64,000 bases of DNA, from assembly GCF_003334385.1 (NCBI RefSeq), contig NZ_QOWN01000002.1; one strand, 5' to 3'. Below, in pieces: positions 3,811 through 4,635 of this stretch (position 1 is its first letter; every line of letters begins with the position of its first letter). The stretch is from Escherichia coli. Lineage in GTDB: Bacteria > Pseudomonadota > Gammaproteobacteria > Enterobacterales > Enterobacteriaceae. The translations under genes and the position numbers were made by a program. The notes below the pieces were generated by a model. It was not told the DNA's origin. It worked only from the letters and a program-made list of their open reading frames with translations, and made no database searches.

Positions 3811-4635
3811 CTATAGCGGAAAACGCGAAATCAGCAGCTCTAAGCGCTGACGAATATCGCTATCCAGCGCCACCGGTGCATCATACGACTGGCGGTTTTC
3901 CATATCATCCGCCACCATGTCGTCGTGTTTATCTCCCATCAGGCCATTAATGGCGGCGAGGAAGCGGGATATCTGTAACGCCTCTTTATTTTCAGGATCA
4001 AGCGATCTTAAGGTGTCGTAATAAGAAACCTGCTGGCTGATGATTTTTCGCACATCATGAAATTCCCTACCGGTTAGTCGCGGTTTGGCAATAATCTCTT
4101 TCAGGGTATGCATTTGCTTTTGCCGATAGGCAATAAAACTGCTTACGCTTTCTAACTGGCTATGGCGTAATGAATAGTTCACCAACGACCAGACCGGAGA
4201 GCTTAAATAAATCCGTAACAGGTTGCCGTAATACGACACAATATTTTTCTTACCGTTACGAAAGCCGTCCTGAAAACGCCCCAGAAAAACGGTCGTTTTG
4301 CCGAATAAAAATCCGGCCTGATGCTTCTTTAAATACAGCCGTTGCGCAAAACGCAGGTGCTTGTAGCGCGCTCGCATGTATTTAAATTGTTTGCGCTCAT
4401 CAGCAGTCAGCTCATCGCCTTTGGCTTGTTTGCGAACTAAACGCAGTAACTCCTGACGATCAACGCCATTGAGCCAGAATTGCAGGCATAACGCGTAATT
4501 ATCATGAATGATTTCGGTGGTACAACTTAGTGCAATAGTCGGCGGCAAACTAACCTGTGCATCAACGACATCATCTTCTTCAATCGCAACAAATAGACGC
4601 TCGCTCGCCTCAAGCGGGAAATATTTTCTCATCAT
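3811..4635 (-). CDS. Hypothetical protein, 274 aa, no family recognised
   Basis: Long ORF translationally coupled to the upstream flippase gene (minus-strand TGATG overlap at 4635) and ending 8 nt before the YtfJ-like gene. Basic, soluble-looking. Confidence 0.55.
   Translation of the reverse strand: MMRKYFPLEASERLFVAIEEDDVVDAQVSLPPTIALSCTTEIIHDNYALCLQFWLNGVDRQELLRLVRKQAKGDELTADERKQFKYMRARYKHLRFAQRLYLKKHQAGFLFGKTTVFLGRFQDGFRNGKKNIVSYYGNLLRIYLSSPVWSLVNYSLRHSQLESVSSFIAYRQKQMHTLKEIIAKPRLTGREFHDVRKIISQQVSYYDTLRSLDPENKEALQISRFLAAINGLMGDKHDDMVADDMENRQSYDAPVALDSDIRQRLELLISRFPL

What the first reader, a model, noticed from the sequence alone, without database searches (positions are those of the whole stretch)
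3811..4635. Coupled 274-aa protein of unrecognised family
Its start codon overlaps the flippase stop by one nucleotide (TGATG) and it ends 8 nt before the YtfJ-like gene, which argues for genuine expression and stoichiometric coupling. I could not match it to any family from sequence. In this context it may be a modifying enzyme or an assembly factor.
Basis: seen in the sequence. Interest (0 to 1): 0.5.

Follow-up and report, generated by a model that had tools for sequence, protein, structure and literature searches.

The report
CHAD-fold protein in sphingolipid locus
The unrecognised 274-residue E. coli protein is a real, strongly conserved gene with the fold of CHAD domains (known polyphosphate binders), and across many bacteria it sits next to a lipid flippase and kinase-like genes in the cluster that makes bacterial sphingolipids, so it probably binds a phosphate-rich ligand there.

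Summary
It is a minus-strand ORF (4635 to 3811, 274 aa). Its ATG overlaps the stop of the upstream flippase gene yghQ (TGATG), and it ends 8 nt before a YtfJ-family gene.

It is a real gene: dN/dS is 0.06-0.08, it is present in 4166 of 5426 complete E. coli genomes, about 212 clusters of relatives exist, and the AlphaFold model has pLDDT 97.

The window is the non-K-12 E. coli sphingolipid locus: yghO-aasR-cerR-acpR-spt converging on yghS-yghR-yghQ-TARGET-ytfJ-like-lptF2-lptG2.

The E. coli protein hits no Pfam or NCBIfam model. The family is nevertheless a divergent CHAD domain:
- The family profile hits the CHAD chain 6QV5 at E 0.002.
- Pfam CHAD matches 22 of 83 members at E <= 0.1.
- UniProt already names relatives "CHAD domain-containing protein".
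- The invariant residues fall on the HxxR motif that binds polyphosphate in CHAD.

Across 79 species, the flippase lies directly upstream in 63 of 75 loci, and dTMP-kinase-like paralogues (YghR/S/T) lie nearby in 67 of 79.

Most likely role (inferred, not shown): a non-catalytic binder of a phosphate-rich ligand, serving the kinases and the flippase. It is a divergent CHAD subfamily in a new context. Moderate interest.

The parts
3811..4635 (-). Target CDS, 274 aa, basic (pI 9.27), all-helical, CHAD-fold protein (named 'Ybl138' or hypothetical protein in E. coli records)
4633..4637 (-). TGATG stop/start overlap between yghQ and the target
4644..4649 (-). GGAGAG Shine-Dalgarno-like motif inside the 3' end of yghQ. 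The GGAG core ends 10 nt before the ATG
   Evidence: read from the sequence
4351..4383 (-). First basic helix motif, K85-Y-M-R88-A-R-Y-K92-H-L-R95 (R88 invariant; K92 and R95 >=90% conserved). It lies in the 81-130 segment with net charge +14
   Evidence: It aligns to the HxxRxxxRRxR helix of RcCHAD 6QV5
4267..4281 (-). G119-R-F-Q-D123, first copy of the CHAD-type (L/M)GxxxD motif (D123 invariant)
4033..4062 (-). Second motif, F-H193-D-V-R196-K197-I-I-S-Q (H193 and R196 invariant). It is equivalent to the CHAD HxxR polyphosphate-contact motif
3922..3951 (-). I-N230-G-L-M233-G234-D-K-H237-D238, second copy of the (L/M)GxxxD motif
4635..5984 (-). yghQ, 449-aa MOP/Polysacc_synt-family flippase, directly upstream and translationally overlapped
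   Evidence: PF01943, PF13440; adjacency conserved in 63 of 75 loci
6030..6788 (-). yghR, dTMP-kinase-like P-loop protein
   Evidence: (TIGR00041, E 7.5e-8)
6820..7533 (-). yghS, dTMP-kinase-like P-loop paralogue, first gene of the operon
   Evidence: promoter-like site 7611..7583 (consensus match only)
7707..8399 (+). yghT, third dTMP-kinase-like paralogue, divergently transcribed. It is the paralogue most widely found with the target
   Evidence: 64 of 79 loci
3239..3802 (-). YtfJ-family periplasmic protein paralogue, directly downstream
   Evidence: TIGR01626, 212 bits against a cut-off of 151; directly downstream in 43 of 79 loci
2138..3208 (-). lptF2, LptF paralogue
   Evidence: TIGR04407, 318 bits; role in Caulobacter
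1062..2141 (-). lptG2, LptG paralogue, last gene of the operon
1030..1064 (.). Hairpin with a 16-bp stem between the convergent spt and lptG2 genes, a likely bidirectional terminator
   Evidence: pattern match only
98..1027 (+). 3' part of spt (serine palmitoyltransferase), end of the convergent ceramide-synthesis operon
   Evidence: PMC9386255

Best explanation
The gene encodes a soluble, cytoplasmic, basic protein. [quoted passage not shown] It belongs to a divergent CHAD subfamily that is a fixed part of a conserved gene module. That module is a MOP-family flippase (YghQ) directly upstream plus two or three dTMP-kinase-like P-loop paralogues (YghR/S/T). In Enterobacterales and Rhodanobacteraceae the module is embedded in the ceramide-synthesis locus (yghO, aasR, cerR, acpR, spt); in Enterobacterales the LptF2/LptG2 export genes sit there too. 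The most likely mechanism is that the protein has no catalytic role. It would use the conserved basic helices (K85/R88/K92/R95 and H193/R196/K197), which are the counterparts of the CHAD HxxRxxxR polyphosphate-contact motif, to hold a phosphate-rich ligand. That ligand could be an oligo- or polyphosphate chain or a multiply phosphorylated lipid head group. The protein would hold it at the cytoplasmic face of the inner membrane for the YghR/S/T kinases and/or for flipping by YghQ, before LptF2G2-dependent export. Shown here: gene reality, fold, motif conservation, synteny. Inferred: the ligand, the absence of catalysis, and the place in the pathway.
Against: No binding, expression or lipid data exist for this protein. 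The E. coli sequence itself does not reach any Pfam or NCBIfam threshold. The first repeat has Lys where CHAD has His, and position 200/201 is S/Q in E. coli where CHAD has K/R. No polyphosphate-metabolism genes (ppk, ppx, TTM) lie in the locus. YghR/S/T are no closer to the PPK3 homologue 2plr/5h70 (E 0.016) than to ordinary thymidylate kinases (E 3e-7), so the PPK3 parallel is only an analogy. A linker-fused AF2 prediction of target plus YghT on 24 paired sequences gave pTM 0.54, which means no confident complex. Some species carry the gene alone or next to glycosyltransferases. Distant homologues have signal peptides and unrelated neighbours. The sphingolipid head group made by E. coli-type loci is unknown.
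Confidence: 0.5

Rival explanations
1. It is a structural or regulatory partner of the flippase YghQ. In this reading the basic face binds anionic membrane lipids or the flippase's cytoplasmic loops, not a phosphate polymer, and it is needed for flippase stability, gating or substrate choice.
For: The stop/start overlap with yghQ. Flippase-to-target is the most conserved gene pair, 63 of 75 loci, and it stays together when the kinases move 7-8 kb away, as in L012, L015, L021, L024 and L040-L046. The protein is basic and has no TM segment.
Against: In Acetobacteraceae, a betaproteobacterium and a gammaproteobacterial MAG the target lies with a YghT-like kinase and not next to a close flippase homologue. 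To my knowledge no soluble partner is known for MOP flippases. The conserved residues are those used by CHAD for polyP. A target-YghQ complex was not modelled here.
Confidence: 0.2
2. It is an ordinary polyphosphate-granule protein (a phosin) that binds cytoplasmic polyP made by Ppk. Its position in the sphingolipid locus would then have no functional meaning.
For: CHAD fold and retained basic motif. E. coli makes polyP with Ppk (own knowledge). Some species carry the gene away from the module.
Against: Synteny with the flippase and kinases is kept across Gamma- and Alphaproteobacteria. The family is found in sphingolipid-gene-bearing lineages: Sphingomonadales, Acetobacteraceae, Zymomonas and spt-positive Enterobacterales. 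No ppk or ppx neighbours.
Confidence: 0.12
3. It is an enzyme. The invariant His and Asp residues (H105, H193, H237, D123, D238) would form a phosphotransfer or hydrolase site acting on the lipid head group. This is the 'modifying enzyme' reading.
For: Invariant His and Asp residues. The original CHAD description proposed the histidines as metal chelators or phosphoacceptors (as cited in PMC6537752).
Confidence: 0.08
4. It is a spurious or decaying ORF with no function.
For: It is absent from 1260 of 5426 complete E. coli genomes and is interrupted by IS1 in one strain. It is annotated only as hypothetical.
Against: dN/dS 0.06-0.08, 212 family clusters, a very confident fold, and conserved synteny.
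Confidence: 0.01

Closest known systems
CHAD domain (Pfam PF05235): Ricinus communis CHAD 6QV5, Chlorobium tepidum CHAD 3E0S/6QV7, Streptomyces PptA 6RN5, C-terminal domain of E. coli YgiF
   Different: Sequence identity is only 7-17%. The E. coli protein falls below all Pfam and NCBIfam thresholds. The first repeat has Lys in place of the name-giving His. It is not linked to ppk, ppx or TTM genes but to a flippase, dTMP-kinase-like genes and ceramide synthesis. PolyP binding is untested.
PPK3 operon of Sulfolobus acidocaldarius (ppx, sixA, cPPK3 and rPPK3, CHAD protein; PMC12995831)
   Same: Paralogous dTMP-kinase-like P-loop proteins are encoded together with a CHAD-fold protein.
   Different: YghR/S/T are not specifically related to the PPK3 homologue 5h70 (E 0.016 against 3e-7 for ordinary thymidylate kinases). 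All three keep the P-loop and the DR(F/Y)PQ motif, whereas rPPK3 is inactive. There is no ppx or sixA here. A flippase and lipid genes are present instead.
Caulobacter crescentus sphingolipid locus (spt, acpR, aasR, cerR, bcerS, cpgA-D, LptF2/G2/C2, putative flippase CC_1166)
   Same: Ceramide-synthesis genes are clustered with LptF/LptG paralogues and a putative flippase. In Caulobacter the exported lipid is anionic and phosphorylated.
   Different: The Caulobacter papers describe no CHAD-like protein and no dTMP-kinase-like genes. Head-group synthesis there uses CpgA-D, including a DAG-kinase-type ceramide kinase. No Caulobacter locus was among the 79 related loci returned, but absence from the genome was not tested directly.

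Membership tests
CHAD domain (PF05235 / PROSITE CHAD) | All-helical domain of two four-helix bundles related by pseudo-twofold symmetry | tested here: met
CHAD domain (PF05235 / PROSITE CHAD) | Repeated sequence signature: HxxRxxx(K/R)xxR(Y/F) helix followed by (L/M)GxxxD | tested here: met
   The second repeat has H193, R196, K197 and the M233-G234-x-x-H237-D238 motif. The first repeat has K85 (instead of His), R88, K92, R95-F96 and G119-x-x-Q-D123. All are invariant or >=90% conserved in 83 sequences and align to RcCHAD.
CHAD domain (PF05235 / PROSITE CHAD) | Significant match to the family's profile HMM | tested here: inconclusive
   The E. coli protein gave no CHAD hit. Of the members, 3 of 83 match at E<=1e-3 and 22 of 83 at E<=0.1, best 2.5e-5. 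The family profile against CHAD chain 6qv5 gives E 0.002. hhalign against the single YgiF sequence found nothing. UniProt names relatives as CHAD.
CHAD domain (PF05235 / PROSITE CHAD) | Specific binding of inorganic polyphosphate through the basic surface | not testable with these tools
   Indirect only: conserved basic residues at the contact motif, and pI 9.27.
CHAD domain (PF05235 / PROSITE CHAD) | Genomic or domain association with polyphosphate metabolism (PPK, PPX, TTM/CYTH) | tested here: not met
   The neighbours are a flippase, dTMP-kinase-like genes, YtfJ, LptF2/G2 and ceramide genes. No ppk, ppx or CYTH gene was seen in E. coli or in the 79 species loci examined with the locus proteins as queries. 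This is a typical association rather than a strict requirement for the domain.
PPK3-type polyphosphate kinase system (dTMPK-like cPPK3 and rPPK3 plus CHAD) | Kinase subunits belong to the PPK3 clade of the thymidylate-kinase superfamily | tested here: not met
   The YghR/S/T profile hits ordinary thymidylate kinases at E 3e-7 to 3e-5, and the S. tokodaii PPK3 homologue (2plr/5h70) only at E 0.016. No phylogeny was made.
PPK3-type polyphosphate kinase system (dTMPK-like cPPK3 and rPPK3 plus CHAD) | Operon with ppx and sixA, and polyP synthesis or polyP-dependent ATP formation | tested here: not met
   No ppx or sixA gene in the locus. The activity cannot be tested with these tools.
Rhodobacterial sphingolipid synthesis/export locus | The gene lies in one cluster with spt, acpR, aasR, cerR, the N-acyltransferase (yghO) and LptF2/LptG2 | tested here: met
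   E. coli ATCC 8739 annotation, NCBIfam scores, the literature assignment of ECD_02850-02854, and the same cluster in 44 of 79 species loci.
Rhodobacterial sphingolipid synthesis/export locus | Requirement of the gene for sphingolipid synthesis, modification or transport | not testable with these tools
   No genetic or lipidomic data were found. No paper in the library holds both 'CHAD domain' and 'sphingolipid', and none deals with E. coli 'Ybl138'.
TPR repeat protein (an annotation given by one source) | Tandem 34-residue helix-turn-helix repeats matching TPR profiles | tested here: not met
   No TPR family in Pfam for the protein or for any of the 83 members. The structural neighbours are CHAD and four-helix bundles.

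The most novel reading that the evidence does not exclude
The YghS-YghR-YghQ-target(-YghT) module builds and exports a lipid not seen before: a sphingolipid, or another lipid, whose head group is an oligo- or polyphosphate chain. The three dTMP-kinase-like enzymes would extend the chain by successive phosphoanhydride bonds. The CHAD-fold protein would hold or measure the growing chain. The MOP flippase would flip it, as MOP flippases do for pyrophosphate-linked lipids, and LptF2G2 would deliver it to the outer membrane as a strongly anionic surface lipid.
Probability: 0.1. Interest if true: 0.85.

Novelty: new variant of a known kind. Interest (0 to 1): 0.45.

Why it matters
About three quarters of complete E. 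coli genomes, and many other Enterobacterales, carry a complete ceramide-synthesis locus whose final product and head group are unknown. The laboratory strain K-12 has lost much of it. Recognising the only completely unannotated gene of the export-side operon as a CHAD-fold protein gives a concrete, testable idea: phosphate-rich head-group chemistry. The idea rests on CHAD being a fold known only as a polyphosphate binder, and on the gene's constant association with three dTMP-kinase-like proteins and a flippase. That narrows what to look for in lipidomics and gives point mutants to test (R88, H193, R196). If the link is real, it would extend CHAD domains from cytoplasmic polyphosphate granules to envelope lipid biogenesis. 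If it is not, the result is still a useful annotation for a widespread hypothetical protein.

Tried and rejected
- Pfam and NCBIfam on the single E. coli sequence gave nothing usable: only a chance-level nuclear-pore repeat match at E 0.087.
- hhalign of the family profile against the single YgiF sequence found nothing. YgiF has a short, divergent CHAD, and a one-sequence template is weak.
- phmmer of YghR, YghS and YghT singly against the PDB was uninformative. A 37-sequence profile was needed.
- That profile did not support the idea that YghR/S/T are PPK3-type polyphosphate kinases, so the idea is kept only as an analogy.
- A linker-fused AF2 prediction of target plus YghT on 24 paired sequences gave pTM 0.54, with both halves well folded. 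This is no evidence for a stable complex. The test is crude: a shallow alignment, the monomer model, and no PAE returned.
- Metagenome contigs for distant homologues were too short, or showed unrelated neighbours.
- The supplement of the PPK3 paper is not held, so I could not check whether YghR/S/T appear in its tree.
- The 'TPR repeat protein' annotation from one source was rejected.
- Literature searches for yghQ/R/S/T, yghO plus sphingolipid, CHAD plus sphingolipid, and Ybl138 found no work on this protein.

Full report
**1. The observation**

The ORF exists exactly at 3811..4635, but on the minus strand. It encodes 274 residues beginning MMRKYF.

On the minus strand, bases 4637..4633 read TGATG. 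The TGA stop of the upstream 449-aa gene therefore shares one base with the ATG of the target. A GGAGAG motif lies at 4649..4644.

The TAG stop (3813..3811) is followed by CCGGAGCA. Then comes the first ATG of a YtfJ-family gene at 3802.

All seven minus-strand genes from yghS (7533) to lptG2 (1062) are separated by fewer than 50 nt or overlap. A hairpin with a 16-bp stem at 1030..1064 separates them from the convergent spt gene. A promoter-like site lies upstream of yghS (pattern matches only).

**2. It is a real gene**

- dN/dS against orthologues in other Escherichia species and in Pseudocitrobacter is 0.06-0.08.
- Megablast finds the gene in 4166 of 5426 complete E. coli genomes, almost always full length and single copy.
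- A search of 1.84 billion cluster representatives finds 212 relatives at E<=1e-3, mostly 270-300 aa long.
- AlphaFold2 on an 83-sequence alignment gives pLDDT 97.1 and pTM 0.93, with eleven helices.
- The protein has no hydrophobic segment and no signal peptide. Its pI is 9.27, and residues 81-130 carry net charge +14.

**3. Where it sits**

The window is a non-K-12 E. coli chromosome between glc and hyb. The locus has two convergent operons:
- yghO (N-acyltransferase), a fatty acyl-AMP ligase (aasR), an NAD-dependent reductase (cerR), an acyl carrier protein (acpR) and spt.
- yghS, yghR, yghQ, the target, the ytfJ-like gene, lptF2 and lptG2. yghT is transcribed divergently from this operon.

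NCBIfam supports these assignments: Spt, LptF and LptG at high scores, YtfJ above its cut-off, YghQ as a weak MOP flippase, and YghR/S/T as weak dTMP-kinase relatives. Precomputed Pfam gives Polysacc_synt for YghQ.

The first five genes are the published E. coli B/BL21 genes for dihydroceramide synthesis, ECD_02850-02854 (PMC9386255).

In Caulobacter, the LptF and LptG paralogues of the sphingolipid locus form a complex, bind LptB, and can be deleted only when anionic sphingolipid is not made. The same preprint shows the E. coli UTI89 locus as homologous (bioRxiv 10.64898/2026.04.12.717747). So the 'flippase' context is sphingolipid export, not polysaccharide export.

**4. What the protein is**

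The single E. coli sequence hits nothing in Pfam or NCBIfam. The family alignment shows two related motif pairs:
- (F)K-x-x-R-A-x-(F/Y)-K-x-L-R-F-A ... M-G-x-L-Q-D
- F-H-x-x-R-K-x-I-S-R ... I-N-G-L-M-G-x-x-H-D

R88, D123, H193 and R196 are invariant. K92, R95, H105, G119, K197, N230, M233, G234, H237, D238 and Y251 are at least 90% conserved.

Several independent lines identify the family as a remote CHAD domain:
- A profile of the family against all PDB sequences gives the CHAD domain of Ricinus communis (6QV5) as best hit, at E 0.002. Both motif regions align in register. The Chlorobium CHAD chains also appear, more weakly.
- Scanning each member against Pfam gives CHAD (PF05235) as the only recurrent family: 3 of 83 at E<=1e-3 and 22 of 83 at E<=0.1.
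- The N and C halves of the family profile align to each other in register. This is expected for the internally duplicated CHAD architecture.
- Foldseek against AFDB50 shows that UniProt already names many relatives 'CHAD domain-containing protein'. These come from Sphingomonas, Acetobacter, Komagataeibacter, Zymomonas, Commensalibacter and Pseudomonas veronii. The E. coli entries are called 'Ybl138' or uncharacterised.

The family is therefore not unrecognised. It is a remote CHAD subfamily that falls below the thresholds for the E. coli sequence.

**5. What CHAD domains do, and whether the site is kept**

CHAD domains are specific polyphosphate-binding modules. The polymer lies across a basic surface formed by the two bundles. 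In Chlorobium CHAD, mutating His253, Arg256 and Arg260 lowers the affinity. The same is true of His29, Arg32 and Arg36 in Sulfolobus CHAD. No conserved metal site or catalysis was found (PMC6537752).

In the alignment to RcCHAD, the target's H193 and R196 fall on this H-x-x-R pair. K85, R88, K92 and R95 fall on the equivalent positions of the other repeat. These are the most conserved residues of the family.

The family is basic: median pI is 9.27, and 80% of members are above pI 8. The phosphate-binding signature is thus retained, with two departures. His is replaced by Lys in the first repeat. E. coli has S200 and Q201 where CHAD has K/R.

I could not inspect the model's coordinates. Clustering of these residues on one surface is therefore inferred from the CHAD alignment, not observed.

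**6. Conservation of the neighbourhood**

A scan of one genome per species returned 79 loci. They come from:
- Enterobacterales: Escherichia, Pseudocitrobacter, Hafnia, Serratia, Sodalis, Pantoea, Erwinia, Citrobacter, Mangrovibacter, Rosenbergiella, Tatumella and others
- Rhodanobacteraceae
- Sphingomonadales
- Acetobacteraceae
- Carnimonas
- a betaproteobacterium and a gammaproteobacterial MAG

I searched these loci with the E. coli locus proteins:

| Feature | Loci |
|---|---|
| Flippase directly upstream, same strand | 63 of 75 with enough upstream DNA |
| At least one YghR/S/T-like gene | 67 of 79 |
| YghT-like gene | 64 of 79 |
| Spt | 44 of 79 |
| LptF2 | 40 of 79 |
| YtfJ-like gene directly downstream | 43 of 79 |

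- In Sphingomonadales the module is reduced to kinase, kinase, flippase and target, with spt not within 10 kb.
- In Acetobacteraceae a YghT-like gene directly precedes the target.
- In rearranged enterobacterial loci the flippase-target(-YtfJ) block stays together while the kinases move as a block.
- Exceptions exist: Pluralibacter, some Acetobacter, and second copies in two genomes. One is a betaproteobacterium in which the target overlaps a GT4 glycosyltransferase. Others lie next to GT2/GT4 or ArnT-like genes.

The lineages match those reported to carry the rhodobacterial type of spt. A genome-wide phyletic profile was not made.

**7. The kinases and the polyphosphate analogy**

A 37-sequence profile of YghR/S/T has an invariant P-loop (G-x-D-G-x-G-K) and a D-R-(F/Y)-P-Q motif in all three paralogues. 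It hits thymidylate kinases in the PDB at E 3e-7 to 3e-5. They are thus dTMP-kinase-like, a class that transfers phosphate to a phosphate acceptor.

There is a published precedent. The Sulfolobus PPK3 polyphosphate kinase consists of two dTMP-kinase-like subunits encoded next to a CHAD protein (PMC12995831).

However, the PPK3 homologue with a solved structure (2plr/5h70) scores only E 0.016 against the YghR/S/T profile. The locus has no ppx or sixA gene. I therefore treat PPK3 as an analogy and not as family membership.

A second, independent link between kinases and this domain comes from natural fusions. Proteins of about 980 aa combine a signal peptide, an APH-type kinase domain (PF01636) and two copies of the target-like domain.

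**8. Test for a physical complex**

I fused the target and YghT with a 30-residue GS linker. The alignment paired 24 sequences by locus. AlphaFold2 folded both halves well (pLDDT about 90) but gave pTM 0.54. That is the value expected for two independently placed domains.

This gives no support for a stable target-YghT complex. The test is crude and cannot exclude one. The target-flippase pair was not modelled.

**9. Mechanism and confidence**

What is shown:
- It is a real gene under strong purifying selection.
- It has the CHAD fold and the conserved CHAD-type basic motifs.
- It has a conserved association with a MOP flippase and dTMP-kinase-like genes. In Enterobacterales and Rhodanobacteraceae that association lies inside the ceramide-synthesis locus, and in Enterobacterales LptF2G2 lies there too.

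What is inferred: the protein is a non-catalytic binder of a phosphate-rich ligand, made or used by YghR/S/T and handled by YghQ, on the cytoplasmic side of the inner membrane.

I put about 0.9 on 'CHAD-fold homologue' and about 0.4-0.5 on the functional reading (0.5 overall). The rivals, with their confidences:
- a flippase partner whose basic face binds membrane or flippase rather than a phosphate chain (0.2)
- an ordinary polyP-granule protein whose location is irrelevant (0.12)
- an enzyme using the invariant His and Asp residues (0.08)
- a non-functional ORF (0.01)

**10. Novelty and verdict**

The CHAD kind is known, and automated annotation already labels relatives as CHAD. The ceramide-synthesis locus and LptF2G2 are also published.

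What appears new is the recognition that the E. coli hypothetical protein belongs to this family. Also new is that a CHAD subfamily is a fixed partner of a flippase and dTMP-kinase-like genes in sphingolipid loci rather than in polyphosphate-metabolism operons. In the searchable literature, no paper holds both 'CHAD domain' and 'sphingolipid', and none deals with this protein.

I rate it a new variant of a known kind, with interest 0.45. It is useful and hypothesis-generating for bacterial sphingolipid work, but it is an annotation-level result without functional data.

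Noticed in passing
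window 3811-4635, compared with E. coli genomes: The gene is missing from 1260 of 5426 complete E. coli genomes. In strain LH13-b (NZ_CP100525.1) it is split by an IS1 element, a natural knock-out. The identity bands (2334 genomes at >=99%, 1317 at 95-99%, 509 at 90-95%) suggest divergent allele classes within the species.
   Followed up: no
L006-L008 (other Escherichia species), target and ytfJ-like genes: Within Escherichia, the target (89-90% aa identity) and the YtfJ-like protein (86-91%) are clearly more diverged than every neighbouring gene (93-99%). dN/dS nevertheless stays at 0.06-0.08. So the pair evolves faster than its neighbours.
   Followed up: partly
window 6030-6788, 6820-7533 (-) and 7707-8399 (+): YghR, YghS and YghT are three paralogous P-loop proteins with intact G-x-D-G-x-G-K and D-R-(F/Y)-P-Q motifs. 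They have no or only faint Pfam matches. A family profile hits thymidylate kinases at E 3e-7. RefSeq names two of them 'dTMP kinase', which is unlikely to be their real function, since they sit in a lipid locus and tmk is encoded elsewhere (own knowledge).
   Followed up: partly
L043 10001-10801 and 10954-11757; L050 9152-9955 and 10001-10816; L082 5525-6301 (-) and 7848-8669 (+); protein P0123: The target is tandemly duplicated in Luteibacter. It is present twice around a YghT-like gene in a gammaproteobacterial MAG. It occurs as a fused tandem of two copies in a 564-aa protein.
   Followed up: no
proteins P0250, P0264, P0268; locus L086 8001-10931: These proteins of about 980 aa have a signal peptide, an APH-type kinase domain (PF01636) and two target-like CHAD-fold domains. 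Their genomic contexts are unrelated to the sphingolipid locus.
   Followed up: partly
proteins P0177, P0219, P0230, P0237, P0240, P0266; loci L088-L091: Distant family members (20-30% identity) carry N-terminal signal peptides. They lie next to unrelated genes such as a TonB/ExbBD-receptor cluster and methyltransferases. Part of the wider family therefore works outside the cytoplasm, where classical polyP granules are not expected.
   Followed up: partly
window 1030-1064: A hairpin with a 16-bp stem (10 G-C pairs) lies exactly between the stop codons of the convergent spt and lptG2 genes. It is a plausible bidirectional terminator.
   Followed up: no
protein P0032: A 280-aa protein 85% identical to the target over its full length is named 'type II secretion system protein GspM' and carries a precomputed PF04612 hit. 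It is probably a chimeric or mis-annotated record.
   Followed up: no
L079 10001-11997; L083 7041-11102; L054 6973-10822: Where the flippase is not adjacent, the target lies beside envelope glycosylation genes. In a betaproteobacterium a GT4 glycosyltransferase overlaps its stop. In Acetobacter cibinongensis a second copy sits next to GT2/GT4 genes and a polytopic membrane protein. In Carnimonas the neighbours are ArnT-like and GtrB-like genes. These assignments come from reading the ORF translations only.
   Followed up: no
window 8448-20000: The rest of the inspected part of the window is the ordinary E. coli pitB, gss, yghU and hyb (hydrogenase 2) region. Long antisense ORFs there, such as 10392-11312 (+) and 15567-16517 (+), look like chance ORFs opposite real genes.
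   Followed up: no
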